Source: Candidatus Formimonas warabiya (GTDB taxonomy: Bacteria > Bacillota > Dehalobacteriia > Dehalobacteriales > Dehalobacteriaceae). From it: 32,000 nucleotides of DNA. Shown here one piece after another: positions 3-31,416 of the stretch (positions are counted from its first letter, which is position 1; every line of letters begins with the position of its first letter). A program made the translations under genes and the position numbers. The DNA is taken from assembly GCF_002777255.1 (NCBI RefSeq), contig NZ_CP017634.1, positions 600,903-632,902 of the forward strand, read 5' to 3'. The notes beneath the pieces are model-generated. The model did no database searches. It saw only the letters and a list, made by a program, of their open reading frames with translations, and was not told where the DNA came from.

Positions 3-434
3 ATGAAAACCAACTGGTCCAGGATGGTGGTCCTGGTGGTTTATCTATGGAAAAACATTGGTTACAGCGTAATCATGTTTCTGGCCGGATTGCAAAATAT
101 ACCGGCTGAATACTACGAAGCGGCCAGAATAGACGGGGCCAGCCAACCGCAGGAGTTTTTCCGAATAACCCTGGTTTATTTGACCCCCACGACTTTTTTT
201 GTTTTTGTTATCTCGATTATCAATTCATTTAAAGTTTTCCGGGAGACGTATCTTATCTCCGGAGAATATCCCTATAACAGCATCTATATGCTGCAGCACT
301 ACATGAACAATATGTTCATGGCTCTGGATTACCAAAAATTGACTTCTGCGGCCTTCATTATGGCTGCCTTTATCGTGGCCGTCGTTTTACTGCTTTTTAT
401 CGTGGAGAGAAAGATCACCAACCTGATTAATTAG
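3..434 (+). CDS. ABC importer permease, carbohydrate (MalF/UgpA-type) family; the 5' end lies outside the window
   Basis: The frame is open from the window edge. It has hydrophobic TM segments and the EAA-loop signature of binding-protein-dependent importers (YYEAARIDGASQPQEFFRITL). Confidence 0.85.
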   Translation: MKTNWSRMVVLVVYLWKNIGYSVIMFLAGLQNIPAEYYEAARIDGASQPQEFFRITLVYLTPTTFFVFVISIINSFKVFRETYLISGEYPYNSIYMLQHYMNNMFMALDYQKLTSAAFIMAAFIVAVVLLLFIVERKITNLIN

Positions 435-560
435 AATCATATCTACACGAACTACAAGGAAAATTGTGCAGCGCACGGAGGGAACCACCGGAGCGCCAGA
501 TACAAGTAACTTAAAAACTTTTTTCATGGGTAGTAACAAACTTAGAACTGGTGATAGGGT

Positions 561-1454
561 GTGTGTGTGTTGAATCGTAACCACCGAATAAAAAATATAC
601 TCCGTATTACAGTTTTACTGGTACTGGCTGTCATATTCATATTTCCCCTGGCTGTAACCGTCACCAATTCATTTATGAGTGAACAGGAAATTGCTGATAA
701 TTATGACCCGGTGACGGACAAAAATTTAAGCAGCTATAACGATGACACCGCGAATCACTTCGCCCGGTTCCAGCTTATACCCGACGTGGTGGTGCTGAAG
801 CAGTATTATAACGTACTCATCAAAAAGACCCAGTTCCTTTTCATGTTCTGGAATTCCGTGCTGATTACCTTCCCTATCGTCATTGGGCAAACGATTGTTG
901 CAACCATGGCTGCCTATGCCTTTGCCAAGCTGAAGTTTAGAGGCAGGAATTTCTTGTTTTTTTTGTATATCATTGTGATGCTGATGCCATTCCAGGTAAC
1001 TCTTGTGCCCAATTATTTAATGGCTGGCCAGCTGGGCCTGCTTAATAGCCGCTGGTCCATTATCTTTCCCGGCATCTTCAGCACCTTTGGCGTATTTCTT
1101 TTAAAACAGTATATGGAGCAAATACCGGACTCCTATATTGAAGCAGCCCGGGTGGACGGAGCCAACCAGCTCCAGATTTTCCTCAAAATCATCGTGCCCA
1201 TGTCCAGGGCCGGCATAGCAGCCATGGCCATACTTGTTTTTATCGATAACTGGAACATGGTCGAACAGCCGTTGATTTTTTTACAGGATGCGGCCAAACA
1301 GCCGCTTTCACTCTATCTTTCCAGAATCATCGACGGTGAAAAAGGATTGGCCTTTGCCGCGTCCACTTTATATATGATGCCGGTGCTGCTGAACTTCCTT
1401 TACGCCGAAAAATACTTGCTGGAAGGGATCCGGCTTTCTGGAATCAAAGGCTGA
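561..1454 (+). CDS. ABC importer permease, carbohydrate (MalG/UgpE-type) family
   Basis: 297-aa ORF with multiple TM segments and an EAA loop (YIEAARVDGANQLQIFLKIIVP). The start is ambiguous (GTG 561, GTG 567 or TTG 570) and sits inside a (GT)6 run. Confidence 0.85.
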   Translation: MCVLNRNHRIKNILRITVLLVLAVIFIFPLAVTVTNSFMSEQEIADNYDPVTDKNLSSYNDDTANHFARFQLIPDVVVLKQYYNVLIKKTQFLFMFWNSVLITFPIVIGQTIVATMAAYAFAKLKFRGRNFLFFLYIIVMLMPFQVTLVPNYLMAGQLGLLNSRWSIIFPGIFSTFGVFLLKQYMEQIPDSYIEAARVDGANQLQIFLKIIVPMSRAGIAAMAILVFIDNWNMVEQPLIFLQDAAKQPLSLYLSRIIDGEKGLAFAASTLYMMPVLLNFLYAEKYLLEGIRLSGIKG

Positions 1455-1544
1455 GCAACTGGTGACTTGTTATATAAATTCTTGCACACTTACTCTACAA
1501 GGGCTAGTGTGTCGCTGCGCTAGTCCAGGAAGGGAGACAGAAAA

Positions 1545-2711
1545 TTGGGGAATGAAGCAATTGCAGGTGATGCGCAAAGAAAAAAAGTGATCGGAAAGTT
1601 AAGCCTGCTGTTCCTAATGGCGATGATCGGGTTAACTTTCTTCTCCAATACCATCAATAACTTTACTCTGCCCAGGGTCCAAACGGCCCGGCCGACGAAC
1701 GGGGCGTTAATCAAAGAAATATTCGGTGAAGGGACGGTCGAGGTCAAATCAACTCGGGAGGAATACGCAGATGCCAATTTGCGAGTAAAGGAGGTCATGG
1801 TGGAGCAGGGGGATAGGGTTAGCAAAGGCCAGCCCATCATCATCCTGGACGTGAACGAACTGAAGTCGAATTATCAGGATGAACAGGCCCGCTACCGGCA
1901 GCTGCAGCTGTCCCTGGCAGGGGCCCGGGAAGAGCAGGCGCAAAAACAAAGGGATTACGATAACCTGAAGTACCTGTTTGATAATGAAGCCGAAACGGCG
2001 GTGAACCTGCAAAATGCCGAAAAGAACCTGGTGGACGCGCAAAGAAACTGTGAGGACATTCAGCTTAATCTGGAAATACAGGCCAGAAAGGTGGATACCC
2101 TGGCCAAACAGGTGGCAAACAACGGCGTGTATACAGCGCCCGTGGACGGCATGATCACAGAACTGAATTTCGCCCAAGGGTCTATGACCAATAACTCCCT
2201 GCCCCTGTTTAAATTGGCTGATCTCCGGCAGGGGTTCCGGCTGATCGTGCCAATTGACAATGATTTGGTTGATTACGTCAAACCCGGAGATACGGTGAGT
2301 GTTAATATTCTCTCCCTGGGGGATAAAAGAACCGAGGGAAAAATTGACAAGATAGTTGAAAACAGCCAGCACAACGGAGAAGAAAAGGATTTGTGGATCG
2401 ACGTGTCTCTGGAAGGCCTGACAGGCGGCGAAAAGGGAGAAATTTATTTAAGCAAAAAAACAAAGCCTTACGCCAACCTCGTACCTAACAGCGCGGTTTA
2501 TAACGACAGCAGCGGCTCATATGTCTTCGTTCTGGAATCAAGAAAAGGACCTTTAGGTAGGTCGAACTATTTGCAAAAGGTGGAAGTAAATGTGGAAGAC
2601 AGTGATAATGAAAAGTCTGCTCTCACAGATATGGTGATGGGCGAAGTGGTGATGCAAAGCAATAAACCGGTGGAGGACGGGGATAGAGTTCTGAAGGAGG
2701 CGGCAAATTGA
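1545..2711 (+). CDS. HlyD-family membrane-fusion / periplasmic adaptor protein
   Basis: TTG start lies 8 nt after GGAAGGGAG. The protein has an N-terminal TM anchor, a lipoyl-like motif (VKEVMVEQGDRVSKGQPIIILD), a long Q/E/R-rich coiled-coil hairpin, and a second lipoyl half (YTAPVDGMITELNF) followed by a beta-barrel region. Confidence 0.75.
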   Translation: MGNEAIAGDAQRKKVIGKLSLLFLMAMIGLTFFSNTINNFTLPRVQTARPTNGALIKEIFGEGTVEVKSTREEYADANLRVKEVMVEQGDRVSKGQPIIILDVNELKSNYQDEQARYRQLQLSLAGAREEQAQKQRDYDNLKYLFDNEAETAVNLQNAEKNLVDAQRNCEDIQLNLEIQARKVDTLAKQVANNGVYTAPVDGMITELNFAQGSMTNNSLPLFKLADLRQGFRLIVPIDNDLVDYVKPGDTVSVNILSLGDKRTEGKIDKIVENSQHNGEEKDLWIDVSLEGLTGGEKGEIYLSKKTKPYANLVPNSAVYNDSSGSYVFVLESRKGPLGRSNYLQKVEVNVEDSDNEKSALTDMVMGEVVMQSNKPVEDGDRVLKEAAN

Positions 2712-4111
2712 AACCGGCCAAATCAGCCTATCCGGCCTATCTTATTCTGGCCCTGAGCATATTGGTTTTAACCTGGAGCACCGTCCTGGGGTCATCCCTG
2801 CCCGCTAAATTGGCGGATCTTGGCGGCCTGCACAAAACCAACAAAATCACCGCCACCTGGCTGAGCAACTCCCATCAGCCGGAGGCCGCCTCTTTTTCCC
2901 TGCAGAAAATGAGGCAGCTGGCTCAATACGACCTCCGGGACAATGATCTGGCTTACGCCATGGAGGCTTCAACTTCTGCCGCCTATCAAAAGAACCAGAG
3001 TCAAGCTCAGGTGCTGGGGGTGAATGACAGGTACGATCAATTCCATCAAATAAACCTAAGATCAGGCGTTTTTTTAACTTTCGAACAGGAAAACCAGCAG
3101 GTCGCCGTAATCGATGAAGATCTGGCTCAGGCTCTTTTTCAGAACTGTAATGTGGTGGGCCGGAAAATAGAACTGTATGGCCAGGAATTTAAAATAACCG
3201 GGGTGGCCGGGGCTGACCATTCCCTGATCGGGACTCTGACGGACAGGGGATACGGTACAGTGTACATACCGGTGAAAATACTGTTGGAACTGGAAGCGGA
3301 TTCCCGAATAACCTCATTGGAAGTGGAAACAAAGGATGCCGGCACCACGGGCCGCAATACCGCTGTTTTGGAAACGGCCCTGGCCTCAATCGGCCAGGAC
3401 CCCGCCAACTACAAAATCATCGATTATAACGTGGCGGGTCTCCTGATGGAACAAAATAACCTGCTGCGCAATTTCGTGGCGGGGATGGTGGCAATTGTGA
3501 TAATTTTCGGCCTGCTCAGGCGAAAAATAAGGGGTATTTATCATTTCTGCCGCCTGAGACTCCGGGATAAATATTGGTCGGAGATGATCAAGGGGGACGC
3601 CGCCAGGCTTGTGCTTGGTATGGCGGAGGTATTAGCGCTTGTTGCGGTGTTGCTGCTGCTATGGAAATTAATCAGATTTACCTTATATATTCCGCCGGAA
3701 AACATACCTAATGAACTTATTGATGTTTCATTTTGGGCTGACCTCATTAAAAACGGGATTCAAACCGGGCTGCAAAGCGCCGGATATGTAGCGCCGCCAG
3801 GAGAGGTTCAGTTGAATGTCCTTAATACCATCCAGAACTGGAACTTGTTTTTAAACATCTTTCTTGGTTGGCCGCTGTTCTTGCTGGGACTTTACCAGAT
3901 CAAGCTGTTGAAGGAAAAACTACTCAAAGTTGAAGTGTTTTGCAGCGTTTTCATGCTGGCCGCCTTAAGCCTGGGCACCGCCTTGCTGTTGATAATAAAA
4001 ATGCCTCCTGTCATAGAGACCGGGGAGGTGTTGCTGGTATTTAGCTCTATATTTTTAACCGTAAGTAAGAGGTCAGGGGACACACCTGCTGAAGCTCGGG
4101 TTAACATTTAG
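2708..4111 (+). CDS. Polytopic membrane protein with a MacB-like periplasmic core domain (atypical FtsX-type permease)
   Basis: TTG start lies 7 nt after AAGGAGG and overlaps the HlyD stop (TTGA). It has an N-terminal TM and a roughly 230-aa extracytoplasmic region with a MacB_PCD-like block (QVAVIDEDLAQALFQNCNVVGRKIELYGQEFKITGV). About five further TMs follow, but I could not see the usual FtsX loop motif. Confidence 0.6.
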   Translation: MKPAKSAYPAYLILALSILVLTWSTVLGSSLPAKLADLGGLHKTNKITATWLSNSHQPEAASFSLQKMRQLAQYDLRDNDLAYAMEASTSAAYQKNQSQAQVLGVNDRYDQFHQINLRSGVFLTFEQENQQVAVIDEDLAQALFQNCNVVGRKIELYGQEFKITGVAGADHSLIGTLTDRGYGTVYIPVKILLELEADSRITSLEVETKDAGTTGRNTAVLETALASIGQDPANYKIIDYNVAGLLMEQNNLLRNFVAGMVAIVIIFGLLRRKIRGIYHFCRLRLRDKYWSEMIKGDAARLVLGMAEVLALVAVLLLLWKLIRFTLYIPPENIPNELIDVSFWADLIKNGIQTGLQSAGYVAPPGEVQLNVLNTIQNWNLFLNIFLGWPLFLLGLYQIKLLKEKLLKVEVFCSVFMLAALSLGTALLLIIKMPPVIETGEVLLVFSSIFLTVSKRSGDTPAEARVNI

Positions 4112-4148
4112 GAAACAGGAATGTCCCCAAATAATAGGAGGGCAGCGG

Positions 4149-5279
4149 ATGGCGAGTTTATATCTGAAAAATCTATCTAAGACCTACCCCGGCAGAGTTA
4201 TGGCAGTCAGGGATTTCTCTCTGGAAATAAAGGATCAAGAATTCTTAATCCTGGTAGGTCCCTCCGGCTGTGGCAAAACAACCGTTTTAAGGATGATTGC
4301 CGGGCTGGAGGAAATTTCATCCGGTGAATTATATATTGATGACCGGCTGGTTAATGACGTGGCTGCCAAGGACCGGGATATCGCCATGGTTTTTCAAAAT
4401 TATGCTCTTTATCCCCATCTATCGGTCTATGACAATATGGCTTTTGGACTTAAGTTGAGAAAGATACCCAAGGCTGAAATCAGGAAAAATGTGCAGGAAG
4501 CGGCCAGGATTCTTGCACTTGAAGATCTTCTGAAACGCAAACCCAAGGAACTTTCCGGTGGGCAAAGGCAAAGGGTGGCCCTGGGACGGGCCATTGTTAG
4601 GAAACCCAAGGTTTTCCTGATGGATGAGCCTCTGTCCAACCTGGATGCGCAGTTGAGAGCCCAGATGAGAATAGAGATTGCCAAGCTCCATAAAAATCTG
4701 CAGACAACTTTTGTTTATGTAACCCATGATCAAACCGAAGCCATGACCATGGGCACCAGAATCGTGGTGATGAAGGATGGCCTGATCCAGCAAATTGACA
4801 GCCCGCAATCCATCTATGACCACCCGGTCAATATGTTTGTGGCCGGTTTTCTCGGTAGCCCCGGGATGAACTTTCTGGAAGTTTTAATTATAGAGCAAAA
4901 CGGCTGTATTTTTGCCAAACTGGCTGACGCCCTACTGCCTGTTCCCGCTGCCGGGGGACAAAAGTTAAAAGAGCAGGGGTATCTGGACCAGGAAGTGGTC
5001 CTGGGGATAAGAGCGGAGCATCTCTGCGGAAACGGAGATTTTTTGGACCGCCATCCCGAGTGTGCTTTGCGCGGGAGGCTGGAGTTTACCGAATTGAGAG
5101 GGGCTGAAACTTACCATTATGTAAGGATAGCTGGCAGAGAGGTGGTTGTCAGGGTGAGTCCGGAGTTGCCCGCCGAAACCGGACAGGAAGTCAGGGTGGG
5201 TTTTAATATGTCCAAGGCCCATTTTTTCGATCAAGAAAGTGAGGTGAACGTCAAATCTCTACTGAATTCTGGCTCCTGA
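4149..5279 (+). CDS. ABC transporter ATP-binding protein, MalK/UgpC/MsmX type
   Basis: AGGAGGG RBS. Walker A GPSGCGKTT, Q-loop, signature LSGGQRQRVALGRA, Walker B VFLMDEPLSNLD and H-loop VTHDQ are present, plus the C-terminal regulatory (TOBE-like) extension typical of sugar-importer ATPases. Confidence 0.9.
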   Translation: MASLYLKNLSKTYPGRVMAVRDFSLEIKDQEFLILVGPSGCGKTTVLRMIAGLEEISSGELYIDDRLVNDVAAKDRDIAMVFQNYALYPHLSVYDNMAFGLKLRKIPKAEIRKNVQEAARILALEDLLKRKPKELSGGQRQRVALGRAIVRKPKVFLMDEPLSNLDAQLRAQMRIEIAKLHKNLQTTFVYVTHDQTEAMTMGTRIVVMKDGLIQQIDSPQSIYDHPVNMFVAGFLGSPGMNFLEVLIIEQNGCIFAKLADALLPVPAAGGQKLKEQGYLDQEVVLGIRAEHLCGNGDFLDRHPECALRGRLEFTELRGAETYHYVRIAGREVVVRVSPELPAETGQEVRVGFNMSKAHFFDQESEVNVKSLLNSGS

Positions 5280-5311
5280 ATTCTGAATACTTAAAGAAAA
5301 GGGGTGTTTTG

Positions 5312-6691
5312 ATGATAAAAAACAAATGCGGAGTTGTCCTAATCCTGGTTCTGGTCCTCGGTATGGGGGTATTTACCGCCGGCTGCGGCAATACTCAGGC
5401 TGCCAGGGAAGATAATAATCCTAATTCCCTGACCATTGCGGTTGTGACCAAAGATATGTACCTGGATACGGCAGTAAAAAAGTTTGAGGAACTTCATCCC
5501 GGCGTCAGTGTGGAAGTGAAAGAATACACCTCCAGTACTTCGGAAAAAGGTGAAGGTGTCAGGGCGGCAGATCCCGGCGATATTGAAAAATATGTCACGA
5601 CTATGAATACCCAGCTCATGTCCGGCCAGGGCAGCGATATAATTTTATTAAACAACCTGCCCTATCAGACCTATGCGGATAAGAATCTTTTAGTTGACTT
5701 GGGGGGGCTGATGCAGTCGGATCAAAGCTTCGACAGGGGCAAATACTACCAAAATATTTTCAAGGCTTTAGAATATAAAGATAAACTATATGGGCTGCCG
5801 GTTAATATCGGTATCGATATGATTGCCGCCGATAGAACCTTACTGGCTGATTCCCAGGTGCAAATCGACGATAGCAACTGGGATTGGAACGATTTTGTCA
5901 AGACGGCGGAAAAGGTCATTAACGACAAGCAAAACGGGGGAACCCAGGAGATGTATGCCTTGGCCGGGATGGATGAAAAAAGACTGATTATGACTCTGGT
6001 TAAAGAAAACTATGACAACCTGGTCGATCCGGAGAAGGAAACAGCCAATTTTACCGGCCAGGAATTTCTTGATTTACTTTCCTTAAGTAAATATCTGATT
6101 GACCACAAACTGGTTAATACGGATACAGCCCAGACCAACATTATGGACATGGCCTCCCGGGGTAAACTTGTTTTTAATTTCACTTCTCTTAGTGGGTTTT
6201 GGGACCTGCAAGTGGCCAAGGCGATTTTCAGCGAGGGTGTTCAGCTTTTAAAGCCCCCCGGAAACGTGTTCTTTTCCACGGACTCTATGTATGGAATCAG
6301 CAGTAAATCAGCCAATCAAGAACTGGCCTGGGAATTTTTAAAATTTTTGGTCTCTGATGATATGATGACTCAGGGAGGAATGCCGATTAATAAGAGTGTG
6401 CTTCCCCAGATTGCCCAGAATTTCACCCAGGCTATCCAAAAAAGGGGCGGGAAAATGATGATCAAGGACGACGGCATTCCAGCTCAACCTATAACACTGC
6501 AACCCCCCACCCAGGAGGATGTGGATTACATGGAAAACCTGCTGAGTCAAGCGAAGGTCTACATCGGAACGGACCAGAAGATTATTTCCATTGTTCAGGA
6601 GGAAACCGCGGCCTTCCTTACAGGACAGAAGACAGCGGAAACGACTGCCCAATTGATTCAGGACAGGGTGAGCACATACTTAAATGAATAA
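5312..6691 (+). CDS. Extracellular solute-binding lipoprotein (family 1 SBP) of the ABC importer
   Basis: Signal peptide with lipobox (LGMGVFTAGCGN), roughly 460 aa, last gene of the same-strand cluster. ATG 5312 is preferred over TTG 5309 because of RBS spacing. Confidence 0.8.
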   Translation: MIKNKCGVVLILVLVLGMGVFTAGCGNTQAAREDNNPNSLTIAVVTKDMYLDTAVKKFEELHPGVSVEVKEYTSSTSEKGEGVRAADPGDIEKYVTTMNTQLMSGQGSDIILLNNLPYQTYADKNLLVDLGGLMQSDQSFDRGKYYQNIFKALEYKDKLYGLPVNIGIDMIAADRTLLADSQVQIDDSNWDWNDFVKTAEKVINDKQNGGTQEMYALAGMDEKRLIMTLVKENYDNLVDPEKETANFTGQEFLDLLSLSKYLIDHKLVNTDTAQTNIMDMASRGKLVFNFTSLSGFWDLQVAKAIFSEGVQLLKPPGNVFFSTDSMYGISSKSANQELAWEFLKFLVSDDMMTQGGMPINKSVLPQIAQNFTQAIQKRGGKMMIKDDGIPAQPITLQPPTQEDVDYMENLLSQAKVYIGTDQKIISIVQEETAAFLTGQKTAETTAQLIQDRVSTYLNE

Positions 6692-6701
6692 TAGGAAAAG
6701 A

Positions 6702-6783
6702 ATAAGTTCTTCATAAGAATTTATTAAGATTTTGATAAGTTGAAATTCCAACATCGCCTGCCTGATTTCGATAAGATGAAATT
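6702..6783 (+). promoter_or_regulatory. Phased ATAAG/TTAAG repeats plus an 18-bp imperfect direct repeat upstream of vanW (candidate response-regulator binding array)
   Basis: The pentamers ATAAG, ATAAG, TTAAG and ATAAG start at 6702, 6713, 6724 and 6735, exactly 11 bp apart. TTTTGATAAGTTGAAATT (6730-6747) recurs as TTTCGATAAGATGAAATT (6766-6783), with 16 of 18 positions identical. Confidence 0.4.
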
Positions 6784-6828
6784 GTCGAATCGGACAGGCT
6801 TTTAACATTCCTGAAAGGAGGCATGGAC

Positions 6829-7656
6829 ATGAAAAGGAAAAGAATTACTCAATTGTTTCCATTCTTACTACCGATCCGCAGGACACAAAGAAAATTATTC
6901 TTCTATGCCAAGATGTGCTTTGACCGGAACCACTATGCAAAAGCAAAGGATCCAGAGTTTTTGCCTTTTTGCATATATGAAACCAAGTCGAAGCTTCTAA
7001 ATGACAATACGGGCTTTGATATAAAATATCAGGAAAACAAGGTGTTTAATCTGCGCCTTGCCGCGGAGCCTGTAAATGGCATATTAATATGCCCTGGTGA
7101 AACATTTTCATTTTGGCAGCGTGTGAGATATGCCGAGAAAAATGAGCGGTATAAGGACGGTTTGTGCATGGTAAATGGCGAATTGGTCACGGTTCCGGGA
7201 GGCGGTTTGTGTCATCTCAGCAATTTTCTGTTCTGGCTGTTTCTGCATACTCCGCTCACCATTGTAGAACGGCATCCTCATCAGATTAAGGATTTTCCTT
7301 CTCCTGATGAGGATGAACCGGATGGTGTGGACGCTACGGTCCGCGAAGGGTGGTTGGATTTAAAGGTCAAAAACAACACCAATCTTACCTTCCAAATTAA
7401 GATATCCCTCAATGGACCTTACATTTATGGCTCTATTTTTATAGATCAGGCCATAGGGCATCGTTACGGGATTATTAATCGCGAAAAGAGCTATTTCAAA
7501 AAAGAAGGGAAAACCTTTGAGCGGGTTTCTGTCTGTCAGCAGAAGATAGACATCAAATCCAAACAAGTTATTTCAGAAAACCTGCTTTATACGGACGTAT
7601 ATGAAGTCGGGTATCCGCTTCCGGAAGAAACTGCTATCGCAGAAGTAAAGAAGTGA
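6829..7656 (+). CDS. vanW: VanW-family protein
   Basis: VanW-type blocks are present (PGETFSFWQRV, GGGLCHLSNFLFW) and the gene lies directly upstream of vanH-ligase-vanX. ATG 6829 sits 7 nt after AAAGGAGG; the ORF-track ATG 6823 is too close to the RBS. Confidence 0.85.
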   Translation: MKRKRITQLFPFLLPIRRTQRKLFFYAKMCFDRNHYAKAKDPEFLPFCIYETKSKLLNDNTGFDIKYQENKVFNLRLAAEPVNGILICPGETFSFWQRVRYAEKNERYKDGLCMVNGELVTVPGGGLCHLSNFLFWLFLHTPLTIVERHPHQIKDFPSPDEDEPDGVDATVREGWLDLKVKNNTNLTFQIKISLNGPYIYGSIFIDQAIGHRYGIINREKSYFKKEGKTFERVSVCQQKIDIKSKQVISENLLYTDVYEVGYPLPEETAIAEVKK

Positions 7657-7661
7657 TTGTT

Positions 7662-7736
7662 ATGAAAAAAAAAGTTGCCGTTTTATTCGGCGGATGCTTT
7701 ACAGAGTTTGAATTTTACTTGTTATATAATTTATGA
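7662..7736 (+). pseudogene. 24-codon remnant of the 5' end of a D-Ala-D-X ligase (ddl/van ligase) gene
   Basis: An ATG 5 nt after the vanW stop encodes MKKKVAVLFGGCFTEFEFYLLYNL*. This matches the conserved ligase N-terminus K(I/V)AV(L/I)FGG.S.E(H/Y)EVS and the intact ligase in this window (KIAIIFGGCSEEHPIS). Confidence 0.55.
7720..7730 (+). promoter_or_regulatory. Candidate extended -10 promoter element upstream of vanH
   Basis: TGtTATATAAT lies about 25 nt upstream of the vanH ATG, inside the ligase remnant. No good -35 element is present. Confidence 0.35.
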
Positions 7737-7753
7737 AAGGATAAATCTAAATC

Positions 7754-8722
7754 ATGGCAAAAATGGGAATTTCAATTTATGGATGCGGGCAGGACGAGGC
7801 CGTTTTGTTCCGAGAGATGGCGCCTCGCTTTGGCGTTATGCCAACTATCACAGATGCAGCGGTATCTGAAGTTAACATTGAACTGGCATTTGGAAATCGA
7901 TGCATCAGCGTCGGTCATAAAACTCAAATCACAAATTCCATTCTTCTTGCGCTCAGCCAAGCCGGTGTAAAGTATATCTCCACAAGAAGTATTGGATATA
8001 ACCATATTAATGTAAAATGCGCGGAGAGCGTTGGCATTTCCGTTGAAAATGTCGCTTATTCGCCCGATAGCGTGGCTGATTACACATTAATGCTGATGCT
8101 GATGGCGGTGCGAAATGCAAAATCCATTATCAGACGTGCAGATATTCATGATTTCAGATTGAATGATGTACGCGGGAAAGAATTACGCGATATGACCATT
8201 GGGGTAATTGGAACAGGACGCATTGGGGCAGCAGTTATGGACAGGCTGCGGGGCTTTGGCTGCCACATATTAGCCTATGACCATCGTCCCCAAACCTCTG
8301 CCGATTACGTTCCTCTTGATGAATTGTTACAGCAGAGCGATATTGTAACGCTCCATACACCACTTAACGCGGATACAAACCATCTTTTTAATCGTCAACG
8401 TATCGAGCAGATGAAGCACGGCGCGTTTATTATCAATACTGGACGCGGTTCACTTCTTGATACCGAGGCTCTTATTTCCGCGTTGGAAAGCGGTAAACTA
8501 GGCGGTGCAGCGTTGGATGTCCTCGAAGGAGAGGAAGGAGTATTCTACTTTGACTACAGAAACAAACCCATTGAAAGCAAACTGTTGTTGCGGTTACAAA
8601 AATTACCGAATGTGCTTATTACTCCGCACACCGCCTATTACACAGAACACACCTTGAGCGATACTGTTGAAAATACTATTATCAATTGCCTGAAATTTGA
8701 AAGGAGAAAGCAGCATGGATAG
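7754..8722 (+). CDS. vanH: D-specific 2-hydroxyacid (D-lactate) dehydrogenase, VanH type
   Basis: Close by-eye colinearity with VanH/VanHB, for example AYSPDSVADYTLMLMLMA, GVIGTGRIGAAV (NAD fold), GGAALDVLEGEE and ITPHTAYYTE. The stop overlaps the ligase start by 8 nt. Confidence 0.9.
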   Translation: MAKMGISIYGCGQDEAVLFREMAPRFGVMPTITDAAVSEVNIELAFGNRCISVGHKTQITNSILLALSQAGVKYISTRSIGYNHINVKCAESVGISVENVAYSPDSVADYTLMLMLMAVRNAKSIIRRADIHDFRLNDVRGKELRDMTIGVIGTGRIGAAVMDRLRGFGCHILAYDHRPQTSADYVPLDELLQQSDIVTLHTPLNADTNHLFNRQRIEQMKHGAFIINTGRGSLLDTEALISALESGKLGGAALDVLEGEEGVFYFDYRNKPIESKLLLRLQKLPNVLITPHTAYYTEHTLSDTVENTIINCLKFERRKQHG

Positions 8723-9755
8723 GTTGAAAATCGCAATTATATTCGGAGGCTGTTCCGAAGAACATCCCATCTCCGTTAAATCTGCGCAAGAGGTCGCAAA
8801 AAACCTTGATATCGAAAAGTATGAACCGTTCTATATCGGGATTACGAAAAATGGTGTTTGGAAGCTTTGTCACTGCCCTGACGCAAATTGGGAAAACGGC
8901 AGTTGCCGGAGGGCTATGCTGTCACCGGACAGAAGCGTACACGGATTGCTTGTTCTGGAGCAGGGACAATACAAAACGATCCGTTTGGATATGGTGTTTC
9001 CCGTTCTGCATGGCAAACTTGGCGAGGATGGTGCGATGCAAGGTTTGTTGGAGCTTTCCGGCATCCCCTATGTAGGCTGCGATGTCCAAAGTTCTGCTCT
9101 GTGTATGGACAAATCCCTTGCTTATATCGTCGCCAGAAACGCGGGAATTGCTACGCCAAATTTCTGGACTGTCACGGCGAACGAGAATATTGATGCCGAC
9201 CGGCTTACTTATCCCGTTTTTGTAAAGCCGGCCCGTTCGGGTTCATCTTTCGGCGTCAGTAAGGTATGTCGAAAAGAAGAATTGCTGAGTGCAGTGGAAA
9301 CCGCAAGACAGTATGACTCGAAGGTGTTGATTGAAGAGGCTGTCGTCGGCAGCGAGGTAGGATGTGCGATATTAGGGAACGATATGGATTTGATTGCAGG
9401 CGAGGTAGATCGAATTTGTCTATCTCATGGTTTTTTCAGAATCCATCAGGAGAATAAGCCTGAAAACGGTTCCGAAAACTCAACAGTAATCGTTCCCGCT
9501 GACATTTCGGCAGAGGCGCGCTTACTCGTTCAGGAGACAGCAAAAGCGGTATATCGCGCCTTGGGTTGCAGGGGACTTTCGCGGGTGGATATGTTCCTGA
9601 AGGAAGATGGAAAAGTAATACTTAACGAGGTTAATACTTTGCCCGGTATGACCTCATACAGCCGTTATCCGAGAATGATGGCAGCCGCAGGGTTAACCTT
9701 TGCCGAAGTGATCGAGCGGATTGTGTCGTTGACATGGAAAGGAAAAAGACGATGA
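8715..9755 (+). CDS. VanA/VanB-type D-alanine--D-lactate ligase
   Basis: ATG 8715 follows AAAGGAG. The N-terminus KIAIIFGGCSEEHPISVKSA, then YPVFVKPARSGSSFGV, and the omega-loop region FFRIHQENKPENGSENSTVIVPA match the VanA/B pattern (IHQE..PEKGSEN) rather than the Tyr-containing Ddl loop. The C-terminus reads NEVNTLPGMTSYSRYPRMM. Confidence 0.9.
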   Translation: MDRLKIAIIFGGCSEEHPISVKSAQEVAKNLDIEKYEPFYIGITKNGVWKLCHCPDANWENGSCRRAMLSPDRSVHGLLVLEQGQYKTIRLDMVFPVLHGKLGEDGAMQGLLELSGIPYVGCDVQSSALCMDKSLAYIVARNAGIATPNFWTVTANENIDADRLTYPVFVKPARSGSSFGVSKVCRKEELLSAVETARQYDSKVLIEEAVVGSEVGCAILGNDMDLIAGEVDRICLSHGFFRIHQENKPENGSENSTVIVPADISAEARLLVQETAKAVYRALGCRGLSRVDMFLKEDGKVILNEVNTLPGMTSYSRYPRMMAAAGLTFAEVIERIVSLTWKGKRR

Positions 9756-10360
9756 AAAATGATTTTGTCTTTGTAGACGAGTTTGTATCCGGAATACGTT
9801 GGGATGCTAAATACGCCACATGGGATAATTTTACCGGAAAACCGGTGGACGGATATGCAGCAAATCGAATTGTCGGTACGAGAGCTTTGTGCAGAGCCCT
9901 GGAAAAAGCACGAGAAAACGCCGCATCCTTTGGCTTTGGCTTGCTTCTTTGGGATGGTTATCGCCCTCAATGCGCCGTAGATTGTTTTCTGCGCTGGTCA
10001 AAACAGCCGGAAGATGGCCGGACGAAACCAAAACACTATCCGAATATTGACAGATCCGAGATAGTTGAAAAAGGATATGTGTCCGCTAAGTCGGGACACA
10101 GTCGGGGCAGCGCAATTGACTTAACGCTTTATTATTTAGCTACCGGTACACTTGTTCCAATGGGCGGTGACTTTGATTTGATGGATTCAGTCTCACATCA
10201 TGGAGCAAAAGGAATCACGCAAGTCGAAGCGAGAAACCGTCAATACCTTTGTTCTATCATGGAGGCCTGCGGTTTTATTTCATACGATTGCGAGTGGTGG
10301 CATTACATGCTGAAACACGAACCTTATCCAAACACTTATTTTGATTTTCCCATCAAATAG
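9752..10360 (+). CDS. vanX: D-Ala-D-Ala dipeptidase VanX
   Basis: ATGA start/stop overlap with the ligase. The sequence VRWDAKYATWDNFTGKPVDGY, the Zn-site motifs SGHSRGSAIDL and EWWHY, and LLLWDGYRP are present. Confidence 0.9.
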   Translation: MKNDFVFVDEFVSGIRWDAKYATWDNFTGKPVDGYAANRIVGTRALCRALEKARENAASFGFGLLLWDGYRPQCAVDCFLRWSKQPEDGRTKPKHYPNIDRSEIVEKGYVSAKSGHSRGSAIDLTLYYLATGTLVPMGGDFDLMDSVSHHGAKGITQVEARNRQYLCSIMEACGFISYDCEWWHYMLKHEPYPNTYFDFPIK

Positions 10361-10705: not shown

Positions 10706-11272
10706 ATGACAGATTTTAAAAGTAATTATACTCCATGTATTTTTCCAAACTCAATTACACAGGTTGCCGATATGCCCTATGCCTTGTATCTATCGCTTCA
10801 AGGAAAATATTTTGTAGGGTATGCACCTGACGTGCAATTCGTTAAAGGTAAATACGGATGGGCAGGACTAGTAAATCCTGATCATTCCTGCGTAAATCTT
10901 CATGTCTATGTATGGACAGTTACCAATTTCGGCGAATCTCCATTAAGTGCAGAAATATGGTTTAATACCAATACTCCAGAAAACTCAGTAATATCTGAGT
11001 TTACATCGCCAGCTAACACCGCTATCTGTCCTCTGCCACGGCCAAAGGTAGGAATACTTCAAGCAAATAATGTCAGCGGTCATCCGCAATGCGGTAATAG
11101 AATATCTGTCAAAAAAGTTCTTTCTGAGGTTACAATCGTCGGTGAAGAAGTCGGCAGATTTATCTTTCCGCCAGGAGGATCTTTTAGTGTTTTATTATCC
11201 AATGCCGAAGCATCAAGTCAATCAGGAATAGCAAATCTTGCTTTCGGATGGTGGGAAGAAGAAATAAAGTAG
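10706..11272 (+). CDS. Uncharacterised 188-aa protein, paralog A of a tandem pair
   Basis: GGGAG RBS and a clean ORF. No signal peptide or TM segment. It shares conserved blocks with the next gene (MPYxLYLSLQGKYF, WAGLxNP, VNLHxY, EVTIxxEEVGxFIFPPGGSF, WWEEE). Confidence 0.7.
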   Translation: MTDFKSNYTPCIFPNSITQVADMPYALYLSLQGKYFVGYAPDVQFVKGKYGWAGLVNPDHSCVNLHVYVWTVTNFGESPLSAEIWFNTNTPENSVISEFTSPANTAICPLPRPKVGILQANNVSGHPQCGNRISVKKVLSEVTIVGEEVGRFIFPPGGSFSVLLSNAEASSQSGIANLAFGWWEEEIK

Positions 11273-11296: not shown

Positions 11297-11863
11297 ATGA
11301 AAAGCTGCAAGAAAAATGCTATACTTCTGACCAATCCGATAACCCAAATTGCCGGCATGCCCTATTCCCTATACCTGTCACTCCAGGGGAAATATTTTTC
11401 AGGCTTTACGGGAAAATTGGCGTTTGGAAATGGTAACAATGCCTGGGCCGGTTTATTGAATCCAGTCAATTCCAGAGTCAATTTGCACCTATATTTCTGG
11501 GAGGTATCCAATATAGGTCCATCACCTGTTCGGGCACGAATATATTTCAATTCCTACCCTCCTGGACAAAGAACAATAGTGAAAACGGTATTTCAAGGTA
11601 ACACTACGCTATGTCCGCCACCAAAACCGAGAATAAGACTATATCAGGCATCAGATGTAGCCGGTGAGCCAGAGGGAGGGGTCAGAGTATTTGTAAGAAG
11701 AGCTTTACCTGAAGTTACAATCGGTGATGAAGAGGTGGGCAAATTCATATTTCCACCTGGAGGGTCCTTTGTAATTTTCTTATCTAATCCGGAGACACCG
11801 GATGAACCTGCAAGTGCAACCCTTGGTTTTTCATGGTGGGAAGAAGAGGTAAATTGCCAATAA
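11297..11863 (+). CDS. Uncharacterised 188-aa protein, paralog B of a tandem pair
   Basis: AGGAGG RBS. A hand count gives 88 identical residues out of 172 gaplessly aligned positions against paralog A. Confidence 0.7.
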   Translation: MKSCKKNAILLTNPITQIAGMPYSLYLSLQGKYFSGFTGKLAFGNGNNAWAGLLNPVNSRVNLHLYFWEVSNIGPSPVRARIYFNSYPPGQRTIVKTVFQGNTTLCPPPKPRIRLYQASDVAGEPEGGVRVFVRRALPEVTIGDEEVGKFIFPPGGSFVIFLSNPETPDEPASATLGFSWWEEEVNCQ

Positions 11864-28847: not shown

Positions 28848-28946
28848 CCATCAGTTTTAACAGGATCTTAACAATAAATTAAAGGAAAAACCGCTTTTTT
28901 ATGGAACAATTGCTTTAAAACGATATTAATTATTAGGGTGGGAGAA

Positions 28947-29630
28947 ATGCAGAAAATATTAATTGTCGATGATGAAGAAAATATTGTCAGCCTGATCGAA
29001 TACAATTTAAAAAATGCCGGTTTTCAGACGATTGCAGCATATGATGGCCGTAAAGCTGTGACGATGGCCCGTGAGCAAAGGCCCGATTTGATTGTTCTGG
29101 ATGTGATGCTGCCGGGAATGGATGGCTTTGATGTGGTACGGGAACTAAGAAAAGAAAGTAACGTGCCGGTTTTGATGCTCACAGCGCGGGCGGAAGAATT
29201 CGACCGGGTCTTGGCTTTGGAGCTGGGGGCAGACGATTATTTAATTAAACCCTTTAGTACCAGGGAATTGGTTGCCCGGGTAAAAGCCATCCTGCGCAGG
29301 GTCACCAGTGAACCCCGGGAGGAGGAAAAAGCCGTGATCAAGGCCGGCCCCATTACCGTCGATGTGGAGAGACACGAGGTCCATGTGGATGAGAAAGAAA
29401 TTCAGCTTACGGCGAAAGAATATGAATTGCTAAAGCTTTTGGTCACCAACCGGGGCAGGGTTTTTTCCCGGGAAAAATTGCTGGAGCAGTTGTGGGATTA
29501 TGATTATTTTGGCGATACCCGCACCATTGATGTGCACATGAGACACCTGCGGGAGAAAATTGAGCAGGATTCCGCTAATCCCCGTTATTTAAAAACTATC
29601 CGGGGTGTAGGGTACAAGTTTGAGGAGTGA
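28947..29630 (+). CDS. phoP: OmpR-family response regulator PhoP
   Basis: The receiver domain (MQKILIVDDEENI, DLIVLDVMLPGMDG, KPF) is followed by a winged-helix domain (LTAKEYELLKLL, RTIDVHMRHLREKI, TIRGVGYKF). Context supports the call: a kinase, a Pho box and pstS lie immediately downstream. Confidence 0.85.
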   Translation: MQKILIVDDEENIVSLIEYNLKNAGFQTIAAYDGRKAVTMAREQRPDLIVLDVMLPGMDGFDVVRELRKESNVPVLMLTARAEEFDRVLALELGADDYLIKPFSTRELVARVKAILRRVTSEPREEEKAVIKAGPITVDVERHEVHVDEKEIQLTAKEYELLKLLVTNRGRVFSREKLLEQLWDYDYFGDTRTIDVHMRHLREKIEQDSANPRYLKTIRGVGYKFEE

Positions 29631-29634
29631 TCAT

Positions 29635-31416
29635 ATGTTGCGGGTGTTTCGGGGGATTAGAGGCAGAATCATTTCCACTTATCTTTTTTTAATCTTAATA
29701 TCCATGGCCGTACTGGGCATCACCTTAATCTGGATGCTGCAGAACTACTTGTTGTCAAATCTAGAAAGTAACATGGCAAATCAGGCCGGTTTAGTGTCAA
29801 ATCTGATTTCTGATCCCATTGCCCTTGGCGAATTTGACCAGGTTGACGCCCAGATCAAGGATTTGGGCAGGACCCTCCAGGCCAGAATCACCATCGTTTT
29901 GCCCAACGGCAAAGTAGTGGGGGACTCTCAATTTAATCCTTCGAATATGGAAAACCATGGTCACCGGCCGGAAATCCAAAAGGCCCTGCACAAAGAGGTG
30001 GGCGAGTATGTCAGGGTGAGCAGCACGGCCGGATTGGAAACCATGTATGTGGCGGTACCCATTGAAGCGCAAGGTCAAGTGGTGGGTGTGGCCCGAATCT
30101 CCCATCCTCTCCAAGAAATCAAGCACACTTTTCTAAAACTGCGGGGAATCCTGTTTACAGGAATTATTATTGCCACCTTTATCGCCGTTTTATTAAGTTT
30201 AAAACTGGCCAAGGGATTCACGGAGCCCATTGAAAGTATTAGTGCAGGAGCCCGTAAAATTACCGCGGGCGATTTAGATGCCCGGGTGTACTCTAGTTCC
30301 AGGGACGAATTGGGAGAATTAGGGAGTACCATTAATTATATGACGCAGACTTTAAAAGAACACATTGATGAAATATCCCAGGAAAAGAGCCGTTTGGAAA
30401 ACATTTTGCACACCATGGTCAGTGGGGTCGTGGTCCTGGATAATCACGGATTGGTGCGCATTGTCAATCCGGCTGCGGAAGAAATGTTTGGCATCAGCGC
30501 TGTGACCTCCGAGGGAAAACATAATCTGGAGGTAATCCGCCACTTTGGCTTAAACAATCAGATTGAAAAATGTCTCATTTCGGAAAAAATCATTGAATAT
30601 GAGTTTTCCCTTCGTTTTCCGGAAGAAAGGGTGATTCAGTGTTACATTGCACCGGTCTACCGGGACAAAAAGATTAGTGGAATTACCCTGGTGTTTCACG
30701 ATATTACCAAACTGCGCAAACTGGAACAGATGCGCGCGGATTTTGTGGCCAATGCCTCCCATGAACTGAGGACACCCCTGACGGTGATCAAGGGATATGT
30801 GGAAACTTTGTTAAACGGAGCCTTAGACGACCGGCAGGTGAGCGAGAAATTTGTCACGGTGATCGACGAGGAAGCTGACCGTTTGAAAAGGCTGGTAGAT
30901 GAACTGCTAACCCTGTCCCAACTGGAATCCAATCGACAGGAAGCAGAAGAGCCTGTGCTGGTATTGGGGATTATTACATTAGTGGCCGAGGAAATGAGGC
31001 AACGTTTCCAAGAAAAACAAATTGCTCTGGAATTAAATCTTCCCGGCGTTGTTCCCCAGGTGAAGGCGAATCCGGACCGGGTGAAGCAAATTTTGGTTAA
31101 CCTGCTGGATAATGCCTTAAAATATACACCTTACGGAGGCAGGGTGACGGTAGGGGCGGAGGAAGAAGAAAACTTTGTCAGAATATGTGTGCAAGACACC
31201 GGGATGGGAATTCCTTCTGAAGATTTGCCCAGAATATTTGAGCGCTTTTACCGGGTGGATAAAGCGAGAAGCAGGCAAATGGGAGGTTTTGGACTGGGTC
31301 TTTCCATTGTCAAGCATATGGTGGAAAATATGGGAGGAAGTATTCGGGTGGAAAGCACCCTCAATGAAGGAAGTACTTTTTGGTTTACCCTGCCTAAGTA
31401 TGAAGCGGTTGGTTAA
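29635..31416 (+). CDS. phoR: Sensor histidine kinase PhoR
   Basis: ATG lies 7 nt after GAGGAG. The protein has two TM segments flanking an extracytoplasmic domain, a HAMP domain, a PAS domain, the HisKA H-box FVANASHELRTPLT and an HATPase domain (NLLDNALKYT, DTGMGI, GGFGLGLSIV). Confidence 0.85.
   Translation: MLRVFRGIRGRIISTYLFLILISMAVLGITLIWMLQNYLLSNLESNMANQAGLVSNLISDPIALGEFDQVDAQIKDLGRTLQARITIVLPNGKVVGDSQFNPSNMENHGHRPEIQKALHKEVGEYVRVSSTAGLETMYVAVPIEAQGQVVGVARISHPLQEIKHTFLKLRGILFTGIIIATFIAVLLSLKLAKGFTEPIESISAGARKITAGDLDARVYSSSRDELGELGSTINYMTQTLKEHIDEISQEKSRLENILHTMVSGVVVLDNHGLVRIVNPAAEEMFGISAVTSEGKHNLEVIRHFGLNNQIEKCLISEKIIEYEFSLRFPEERVIQCYIAPVYRDKKISGITLVFHDITKLRKLEQMRADFVANASHELRTPLTVIKGYVETLLNGALDDRQVSEKFVTVIDEEADRLKRLVDELLTLSQLESNRQEAEEPVLVLGIITLVAEEMRQRFQEKQIALELNLPGVVPQVKANPDRVKQILVNLLDNALKYTPYGGRVTVGAEEEENFVRICVQDTGMGIPSEDLPRIFERFYRVDKARSRQMGGFGLGLSIVKHMVENMGGSIRVESTLNEGSTFWFTLPKYEAVG

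What the first reader, a model, noticed from the sequence alone, without database searches (positions are those of the whole stretch)
7657..7753. Scar of a second D-Ala-D-X ligase gene between vanW and vanH, suggesting a mosaic van cluster
Five nt after the vanW stop, an ATG opens a 24-codon frame, MKKKVAVLFGGCFTEFEFYLLYNL*. Its first roughly 17 residues reproduce the conserved N-terminus of Ddl/Van ligases. Compare the intact ligase in this window, KIAIIFGGCSEEHPIS, and from memory VanG, KKIAVIFGGNSTEYEVS. In vanG-type operons the ligase gene follows vanW directly, whereas in vanB-type operons vanH follows vanW. The simplest reading is that a vanH-ligase-vanX (D-Lac) module recombined into, or replaced, a vanW-ligase arrangement and truncated the older ligase. 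The junction also creates a TGtTATATAAT promoter-like element in front of vanH.
Basis: partly seen in the sequence, partly recalled or inferred. Interest (0 to 1): 0.7.

Follow-up and report, generated by a model that had tools for sequence, protein, structure and literature searches.

The report
Fossil vanG ligase stub before vanH
Between vanW and vanH there is a decayed stub, the first 20 codons, of a vanG-type D-Ala-D-Ser ligase gene; it marks where a D-lactate resistance module (vanH-vanI-vanX) was spliced behind the vanW of a D-serine-type operon, a tidy but non-functional record of how vancomycin-resistance clusters are built.

Summary
Five bases after the vanW stop (7654-7656), ATG 7662 opens a 24-codon ORF (7662-7736). 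Its first 20 codons, and the stop-spacer-start arrangement before them, match the 5' end of ligase genes that directly follow related vanW genes. The best match is L095: 43 nt at 95%, E 9e-14, an intact NCBIfam VanG followed by VanXY-G-like and VanT-like genes. L002 gives 30 nt at 97%.

The window comes from Candidatus Formimonas warabiya. Its intact ligase is VanI-type. Its VanW nests with 95-100% bootstrap among VanW proteins of vanG-type operons, whereas vanH, ligase and vanX are closest to other vanHAX modules. The cluster is therefore mosaic.

The stub recurs in four more lineages in different states of decay: a premature stop, a frameshift with a 23-nt deletion, and loss of its 5' half. 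It is a pseudogene relic, not a conserved leader peptide.

The classic vanH-less vanI clusters of Desulfitobacterium and Desulfosporosinus keep 25-65 nt of the vanH 3' end in front of vanI. They probably derive from this arrangement by deletion.

The promoter claim is not supported: there is no -35 box, and the element is absent from two lineages. Which parent was the recipient remains open. Interest is moderate.

The parts
6700..6822 (+). Conserved van promoter/leader region ('P'). It holds the direct repeats CATAAGAATTT / ATTAAGATTTT / GATAAG, a terminator-like hairpin (about 6756-6799) with a T-run, and then the vanW ribosome-binding site.
   Evidence: It is 90-98% identical to regions upstream of vanW (L097, L081, L107, L005), vanH (L101, L110), vanX (L092) and an ABC permease gene (L087). 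The hairpin folds at -20.3 kcal/mol, z -2.7. There is no Rfam family. Promoter function is inferred, not shown.
6823..7656 (+). vanW (the annotated start is probably M3 at 6829). It is of vanG-operon ancestry.
   Evidence: Pfam VanW, 5e-37. NCBIfam vanW-gen 460 bits; vanW-G 331 against vanW-B 311. It is 100% identical to the F. warabiya VanW. In the NJ tree it is sister to the G-linked L002, L003 and L005.
7657..7721 (+). Relic of a vanG-type ligase gene: the original vanW-vanG spacer (TTGTT), the ATG at 7662, and codons 1-20.
   Evidence: 43 nt at 95% to the L095 vanG 5' end (E 9e-14) and 30 nt at 97% to L002. The L095 and L002 ligases are NCBIfam VanG.
7662..7736 (+). 24-codon ORF left by the relic. 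Its TGA (7734-7736) abuts the vanH Shine-Dalgarno sequence.
   Evidence: Translation. The ORF is intact in L100, truncated in L097, frameshifted in L098 and half-deleted in L108.
7722..7753 (+). Junction plus the vanH leader. 7722-7732 (TTATATAATTT) is of ambiguous origin and may be the tail of a P leader. 7733-7753 (TATGAAAGGATAAATCTAAATC) is the vanH ribosome-binding region, which travels with vanH.
   Evidence: 22 nt are identical upstream of vanH in L107, and a similar sequence occurs in L101, L110 and L017, where no stub is present.
7754..8722 (+). vanH (D-lactate dehydrogenase).
   Evidence: NCBIfam vanH_gen 570 bits against a cut-off of 540. It is 85-97% identical to VanH in many taxa.
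8715..9755 (+). Intact D-Ala-(R)-lactate ligase, VanI-type.
   Evidence: NCBIfam VanI 732 bits against a cut-off of 700. It is 83-92% identical to the ligases of Desulfitobacterium and Desulfosporosinus vanI clusters.
9752..10360 (+). vanX (D-Ala-D-Ala dipeptidase).
   Evidence: NCBIfam VanX 398 bits against a cut-off of 320.

Best explanation
Bases 7657-7721 are a pseudogene relic: the ribosome-binding spacer, start codon and first 20 codons of a vanG-type D-Ala-D-Ser ligase gene that once followed this vanW directly, as in vanW-vanG-vanXY-vanT operons. An illegitimate recombination joined codon 20 of that gene to the leader of a vanH-vanI-vanX (D-lactate) module. This produced P-vanW-(relic)-vanH-vanI-vanX.

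The relic has no enzymatic role and is drifting, with point changes, indels and deletions in sister lineages. vanH is most likely transcribed together with vanW from the conserved van promoter region upstream of vanW (inferred). The leftover 24-codon ORF may still be translated and ends on the vanH Shine-Dalgarno sequence (inferred, untested).

The same arrangement appears to be the founder of the VanI family of clusters. Later deletions removed the relic plus vanH, giving the classic vanH-less vanI clusters, or removed vanW (L108).
For: Shown:
- Nucleotide homology of the stub and its junction to intact vanG 5' ends placed directly after related vanW genes.
- The L095 and L002 ligases pass the NCBIfam VanG cut-off and have VanXY-G-like and VanT-like neighbours; the window ligase passes the VanI cut-off.
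- 50 of the 80 genome loci have vanW followed directly by a ligase about 45% identical to the window ligase (tallied from the tblastn layout).
- VanW is sister to G-linked VanW at 100/95/100 bootstrap, while the VanW proteins followed directly by vanH (L013, L026, L017) lie in a different part of the tree.
- Identities are discordant: against L017, VanW is 53% but vanH, ligase and vanX are 76, 82 and 81%.
- The stub is present in L100, L097 and L098/L099, and its 3' half in L108/L109, each with a different lesion.
- The intergenic stretch diverges about as much as third codon positions, and gaps concentrate there: 3-30 gap columns per pair, against none in vanW or the ligase and at most 10 (vanH of L097) or 3 (vanX of L098) elsewhere.
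- vanH 3' tails are retained in front of vanI in L081, L085, L087, L001, L092 (20 codons, 90%) and L093.
- Stub-bearing loci sit both near the base and in the crown of the ligase and vanH trees.

Literature context: vanW, vanY and vanZ were never found in streptomycetes, whereas this VanHA clade roots among Actinobacteria (PMC11273654, PMC9689679).
Against: - The direction of the event is unresolved. The same promoter region P occurs in front of vanW in this family and in front of vanH in L101 and L110. So a promoterless vanW-vanG' piece inserted into a P-vanH leader, or a cross between two P-bearing operons, fits equally well.
- No other vanG-operon remnant (VanXY, VanT) is present in the window.
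- Recombination is rampant in this family; the L005 vanW is itself chimeric. Tree-based ancestral-state arguments are therefore soft.
- The NJ trees are simple distance trees.
- No expression data exist for any statement about transcription or translation.
Confidence: 0.88

Rival explanations
1. The short ORF is kept as a functional upstream ORF. Ribosomes that translate it terminate on the vanH Shine-Dalgarno sequence and couple vanH translation to vanW, or otherwise tune vanH expression. On this view the gene fossil has been co-opted.
For: The ATG and an AAGGAG ribosome-binding site are retained in L100 and L097, weakened to AAGAAG in the window. In the window, L100 and L098 the ORF ends at the same TGA, whose last base abuts the AAAGGA Shine-Dalgarno sequence, 17 nt before the vanH ATG. 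This holds in L098 despite a 1-nt and a 23-nt deletion.
Against: L097 has a premature TAA about 36 nt upstream of that TGA. L108 has lost the start and 5' half. The vanI clusters and L101, L110 and L017 express vanH or vanI without it. Three of four ORFs ending at one stop is weak evidence, because roughly 1 in 3 is expected per indel set. The peptide sequence is not conserved.
Confidence: 0.12
2. The junction created a new promoter (TGtTATATAAT) that drives vanH-vanI-vanX independently of vanW.
For: A perfect TATAAT hexamer lies at 7725-7730. It is conserved in L097 and reads TATGAT in L100.
Against: The consensus scan calls no + strand promoter anywhere in 6600-7900. There is no -35-like hexamer at 16-18 nt. 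The TG lies 3 nt before the hexamer rather than 1. A transcription start about 7 nt downstream would fall inside or just before the Shine-Dalgarno sequence. The element is deleted in L098 and L108. A conserved promoter region lies upstream of vanW, and no terminator-like site was found anywhere in the scanned stretch 6600-7900, which covers vanW and the start of vanH.
Confidence: 0.1
3. The stub is a duplicated copy of the 5' end of the window's own vanI ligase gene, or of a housekeeping ddl, rather than of a vanG-type gene.
For: All Ddl and Van ligases share the (I/V)A(I/V)(I/L)FGG motif. GGC also occurs in VanA, VanB and VanI ligases.
Against: blastn finds no match between the stub and any vanI-type ligase start in the related loci. 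At the peptide level the vanI-type starts match only 12-14 residues at 57-58% identity. By contrast, 43 of 45 nt, plus the vanW-stop/spacer arrangement, match vanG of L095. The TEYEVSL motif (here TEFEFYL) is that of the vanW-adjacent, VanG-type ligases, against SEEHPISV in VanI.
Confidence: 0.02
4. The similarity arises by chance in an AT-rich intergenic spacer.
For: Pfam reports no hit for the 24-aa peptide.
Against: E 9e-14 at the nucleotide level, at exactly the syntenic position. The stub recurs in five lineages.
Confidence: 0.005

Closest known systems
vanG-type operons (vanU/R/S-vanY-vanW-vanG-vanXY-vanT; D-Ala-D-Ser)
   Same: vanW is followed directly by the ligase gene. The stub reproduces the vanW stop/spacer/ATG and the first 20 codons of such a ligase. 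The window's VanW is phylogenetically nested among VanW proteins of these operons.
   Different: Only 60 nt of the ligase gene survive. There is no VanXY or VanT in the window. The working ligase here is a D-Ala-D-Lac enzyme.
vanI cluster of Desulfitobacterium hafniense and Desulfosporosinus (Kruse et al. 2014, PMC4229326)
   Same: The ligase passes the NCBIfam VanI cut-off and is 83-92% identical. VanW is 81-90% and VanX 91-94% identical. The same promoter region is present.
   Different: The published vanI cluster is defined by lacking vanH. The window has an intact vanH plus the vanG stub. The vanH-less clusters retain 25-65 nt of the vanH 3' end and so look like deletion derivatives. The papers retrieved here do not mention these remnants.
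vanB-type operon order (vanY-vanW-vanH-vanB-vanX)
   Same: The gene order is the same: vanW-vanH-ligase-vanX. PMC9689679 lists F. warabiya as vanRSYWHAX.
   Different: VanW-B and VanB model scores are far below their cut-offs (311 against 610; 542 against 750). The loci here with the vanB-like order have only 8-21 nt between vanW and vanH and no stub (L017, L026), or about 300 nt and no stub (L013). Here the order arose independently, by fusion.
Gene remnants at recombination junctions of mosaic resistance operons (general phenomenon)
   Same: A truncated 5' gene fragment marks the breakpoint between modules with different histories.
   Different: No such vanG remnant in a D-Lac cluster turned up in the papers searched. 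That search was limited.

Membership tests
vanG-type D-Ala-D-Ser ligase gene (as a remnant) | Sequence homology to VanG-class ligases rather than to other Ddl or Van ligases | tested here: met
   The best nucleotide and peptide matches are the 5' ends of the L095 and L002 ligases, which score 578 and 537 bits against the NCBIfam VanG cut-off of 495. The fragment itself is too short for the model.
vanG-type D-Ala-D-Ser ligase gene (as a remnant) | Position directly downstream of vanW with the operon's junction | tested here: met
   The GTGATT(G/A)T(T/A)ATG stop/spacer/start arrangement is shared with L095. 50 of the 80 loci show vanW followed directly by a ligase.
vanG-type D-Ala-D-Ser ligase gene (as a remnant) | Complete ATP-grasp ligase (about 345 aa) able to make D-Ala-D-Ser | tested here: not met
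   Only 20 homologous codons remain, followed by 4 unrelated codons and a stop. It is a pseudogene relic, not a gene.
vanG-type operon | VanXY and VanT (serine racemase) are present | tested here: not met
   tblastn of L095 and L002 VanXY and VanT against the window gives nothing below E 0.7.
vanI cluster (Kruse 2014) | VanI-type D-Ala-D-Lac ligase | tested here: met
   NCBIfam VanI 732 bits against a cut-off of 700.
vanI cluster (Kruse 2014) | No vanH within the cluster | tested here: not met
   An intact vanH lies at 7754-8722. The window is a vanH-containing relative, or precursor form, of that cluster.
vanB-type operon | VanB ligase and VanW-B subfamily | tested here: not met
   VanB scores 542 against a cut-off of 750; vanW-B scores 311 against 610.
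Regulatory leader peptide / conserved uORF | The ORF and its peptide are conserved among homologous loci | tested here: not met
   L097 has a premature stop, L098 is frameshifted, L108 is half deleted, and the vanI clusters, L101 and L110 lack it entirely.
Sigma-70 promoter at the junction | -35 and -10 hexamers at 16-18 nt spacing, or a properly spaced extended -10 (TGnTATAAT) | tested here: not met
   The scan finds none on the + strand. TATAAT at 7725-7730 has no -35 box, and the TG is 3 nt away. Activity itself is not testable with these tools.

The most novel reading that the evidence does not exclude
P-vanW-(vanG relic)-vanH-vanI-vanX, as seen in this window, is the founding arrangement of the whole VanI family. 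A D-lactate core whose published phylogeny places it among actinobacterial VanHA displaced the D-serine core of a Firmicute vanG operon in a single event that left this fossil. The puzzling vanH-less vanI clusters then arose from it by at least three independent deletions. In addition, the relic ORF may have been co-opted as a coupling uORF for vanH.
Probability: 0.45. Interest if true: 0.55.

Novelty: new member of a known kind. Interest (0 to 1): 0.45.

Why it matters
Van clusters are known to be mosaics of a conserved vanHAX core and accessory genes of different origin, but physical breakpoints are rarely visible. This 60-nt fossil pins one such event to the nucleotide: codon 20 of a vanG-type ligase was joined to the vanH leader. 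It shows that a D-Lac module can replace a D-Ser module behind the same accessory gene, and possibly the same promoter.

Together with the vanH tails in front of vanI, it also explains the 'vanH-less' vanI clusters of Desulfitobacterium and Desulfosporosinus as degraded derivatives rather than a separate design. This is useful for annotating and classifying environmental van loci. It has no direct clinical consequence, and no plasmid copy was found.

Tried and rejected
- Pfam on the 24-aa peptide gave no hit because the fragment is too short.
- GC and skew profiles across 5-12.5 kb showed no breakpoint.
- An exact-protein look-up of the 277-aa VanW found nothing, because the annotated protein starts at M3.
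- I first thought that 7737-7756 carried the tail of a second, vanB-type vanW, because it resembles the end of L017's vanW. I rejected this. The same GAAAGGATAAATCTAAATC precedes vanH in L107 and L101, where no vanW is upstream, so it is simply the vanH ribosome-binding leader.
- I considered L005 (P-vanW-vanG) as the intact ancestor that already carried P. I rejected it as evidence because its P and first ~200 nt of vanW are 83-98% identical to the window while the rest is 55-66%. It is a recent chimera.
- A possible 6+6 nt trace of the stub after the vanW of L107 (TGATTG..GTTGCC) is too short to count.
- Rfam found no family in 6600-7900.
- megablast of the cluster against plasmids found no match.
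- The single-protein scan of metagenome contigs returned only 8 loci.

Full report
**Observation.** The window carries vanW (6823-7656), vanH (7754-8722), a D-Ala-D-X ligase (8715-9755) and vanX (9752-10360). All four were confirmed with Pfam and NCBIfam. In the 97-nt spacer, ATG 7662 lies five nt after the vanW TGA. The VanW protein is 100% identical to that of Candidatus Formimonas warabiya.

**Is the similarity real?** Yes. blastn-short of 7657-7753 against 1.1 Mb of fetched loci hits the first bases of the ligase gene in L095 (43 nt, 95%, E 8.7e-14) and in L002 (30 nt, 97%, E 2e-8). Both of those ligase genes directly follow vanW genes 73% and 70% identical to the window's.

The junction itself is conserved. 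L095 reads ...GAGGAGTGATTATATGAAAAATGAAAAAAACAAAGTTGCCGTTTTATTCGGCGGATGCTCTACAGAGTATGAGGTTTCTCTC. The window reads ...AAGAAGTGATTGTTATGAAAAAAAAAGTTGCCGTTTTATTCGGCGGATGCTTTACAGAGTTTGAATTTTACTTG. Homology runs through codon 20 (7719-7721). FTEFEFYL is STEYEVSL with four single-step replacements at positions that all the vanW-adjacent ligases listed here keep, which indicates relaxed constraint. Full-length VanG from L095 finds 7665-7721 as a second HSP in the window (E 5e-4).

**What kind of ligase was it?** The L095 and L002 ligases pass the NCBIfam VanG cut-off (578 and 537 bits against 495). L095 continues with VanXY-G-like and VanT-like genes, so it looks like a vanG-type D-Ser operon, although those two neighbours score below their NCBIfam cut-offs. 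The window's intact ligase passes the VanI cut-off (732 against 700) and is only 46% identical to those VanG proteins. The stub is not a copy of the window's own ligase start: the vanI-type starts match only 12-14 residues at 57-58%, with no blastn match.

**Mosaic structure.** Among 80 genome loci with VanW relatives, 50 show vanW followed directly by a ligase about 45% identical to the window's. Only three, L017, L013 and L026, show vanW-vanH-ligase-vanX. The window's VanW is 70, 64 and 60% identical to the G-linked L002, L003 and L005, but only about 50% to the H-linked VanW proteins. Its vanH, ligase and vanX, however, are 76, 82 and 81% identical to L017. In a bootstrapped NJ tree the VanW of this family is nested as (L005,(L003,(L002, this family))) with 100/95/100 support. 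The VanW proteins followed directly by vanH (L013, L026, L017) lie in a different part of the tree. There is no GC or skew break.

On the right, TATGAAAGGATAAATCTAAATCATGG is identical upstream of vanH in L107, and similar in L101, L110 and L017, where no stub exists. The vanH module therefore starts by about 7733, leaving 7722-7732 ambiguous.

**Relic or leader peptide?** The stub recurs in other vanW-vanH-vanI-vanX loci:
- L100 has an intact 25-codon ORF.
- L097 has a 1-nt insertion that creates a premature TAA.
- L098/L099 have a 1-nt and a 23-nt deletion.
- L108/L109 retain only seven vanW codons and the 3' half of the stub in front of vanH.

These are shown. Divergence in the spacer equals that of third codon positions. 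Gaps concentrate there: 3-30 gap columns per pair, against none in vanW or the ligase and at most 10 in vanH (L097) or 3 in vanX (L098).

A weak hint of residual use is that three of four ORFs end at the same TGA abutting the vanH Shine-Dalgarno sequence. I rate a coupling-uORF role at about 0.12.

**Promoter claim.** TATAAT at 7725-7730 is perfect, but it has no -35 box and its TG is 3 nt away. The scan calls no + strand promoter in 6600-7900. The element is missing in L098 and L108.

A much better candidate lies upstream of vanW (about 6700-6822). This roughly 120-nt region has OmpR-type direct repeats and a terminator-like leader hairpin (-20.3 kcal/mol, z -2.7). It is 90-98% identical in front of vanW, vanH, vanX or an ABC permease in many related loci. 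Co-transcription of vanW and vanH from it is inferred, not shown.

**Wider consequence.** The closest VanW relatives (81-90%) belong to classic vanI clusters in Desulfosporosinus youngiae, D. lacus, Desulfitobacterium hafniense DP7 and metagenomes. In these, vanW is followed directly by vanI with no vanH. All of them keep the vanH 3' end in front of vanI: about 25-35 nt in L081, L085, L087 and L001; 20 codons at 90% in L092; and another junction in L093. vanH, and the stub with it, was therefore deleted there, at several different breakpoints.

Stub-bearing loci are both near the base (L098) and in the crown (window, L100, L097) of the ligase and vanH trees. The window's arrangement is thus probably ancestral to the VanI family. 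Kruse et al. (PMC4229326) describe the absence of vanH but no remnants. PMC9689679 lists F. warabiya as vanRSYWHAX and calls the D. hafniense loci 'bizarrely recombined' and 'degraded', without mentioning a ligase stub.

**What stays open.** The direction of the fusion is not settled. P occurs in front of vanW here and in front of vanH in L101 and L110. L005, which has P-vanW-vanG, is a recent chimera. Two routes remain possible: a vanHAX module replacing vanG-vanXY-vanT in a P-vanW-vanG operon, which fits the literature on actinobacterial cores and Firmicute accessory genes (PMC9689679, PMC11273654); or a vanW-vanG' piece inserted into a P-vanH leader. No expression data exist.

**Verdict.** This is a well-documented gene fossil in a mosaic van cluster: a new example of a known kind of feature, of moderate interest, with a useful by-product for understanding the vanI clusters.

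Noticed in passing
window 6700-6822; also L101 3890-4000, L110 3890-4000, L081 4897-5000, L107 3753 and 7927, L092 1372, L087 9059: A region of about 120 nt is 90-98% identical across many related loci. It holds the direct repeats CATAAGAATTT / ATTAAGATTTT / GATAAG and a terminator-like hairpin with a T-run in the leader. It sits in front of different genes: vanW, vanH, vanX and an ABC permease. It is probably the VanR-dependent promoter of this family, with a possible attenuator. There is no Rfam match.
   Followed up: partly
L081 5826-5857, L085, L087 5805-5847, L001 6817-6851, L092 5820-5903, L093 5829-5976: The 'vanH-less' vanI clusters of Desulfitobacterium, Desulfosporosinus and metagenomes retain 25-65 nt of the vanH 3' coding end directly upstream of vanI. 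There are at least three different deletion junctions, so vanH was lost by deletion.
   Followed up: partly
L108 3960-4000 (and L109): In a Syntrophomonadaceae-type locus, P is followed by the first seven vanW codons, then the 3' half of the vanG stub, then vanH-ligase-vanX. This is a vanW deletion derivative of the same ancestor.
   Followed up: partly
L005 5880-6250: The vanW of a vanG-type operon (Halothermothrix MAG) is chimeric. P and the first ~200 nt are 83-98% identical to the window, while the remainder is 55-66% identical. This indicates recent recombination between cluster types.
   Followed up: partly
window 3-6691; L087 9059-10831; L091 1150-1300: Six genes lie upstream of vanW: two permeases, an HlyD-like gene, a large membrane protein, an ABC ATPase and a solute-binding protein. 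They correspond to the 'six-gene insertion in vanW' reported for F. warabiya (PMC9689679). In D. hafniense DP7, a P copy plus 10 vanW codons precede a permease 94% identical to window ORF 3-431. In L091 a full vanW abuts the same permease. This ABC system may belong to the VanR regulon.
   Followed up: partly
L110 8024-8377 (and L111 6079-6432): Another truncated ligase lies in a related cluster: a 117-aa ORF with only the Dala_Dala_lig_N domain, after vanX-murF.
   Followed up: no
window 10706-11272 and 11297-11863: Two tandem paralogous DUF6143 genes (188 aa each) lie directly downstream of vanX. Their function is unknown, and they were not seen next to the other loci examined.
   Followed up: no
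window 28938-31416: No vanR or vanS is adjacent to the cluster in the window. The only response-regulator and kinase pair is 47% and 30% identical to the VanR and VanS of L002 and, judged from its 598-aa length alone, may be a PhoR-type kinase (no domain scan was run). The literature places vanRSY upstream of the window.
   Followed up: no
L107 (Oxobacter pfennigii) 3753-4000 and 7927-8969: The locus has two P copies. One, with a degenerate vanW start, lies about 150 nt upstream of vanH. The other is in front of an intact vanW placed after vanX-vanY. The layout is a circular permutation of the window's gene order.
   Followed up: no
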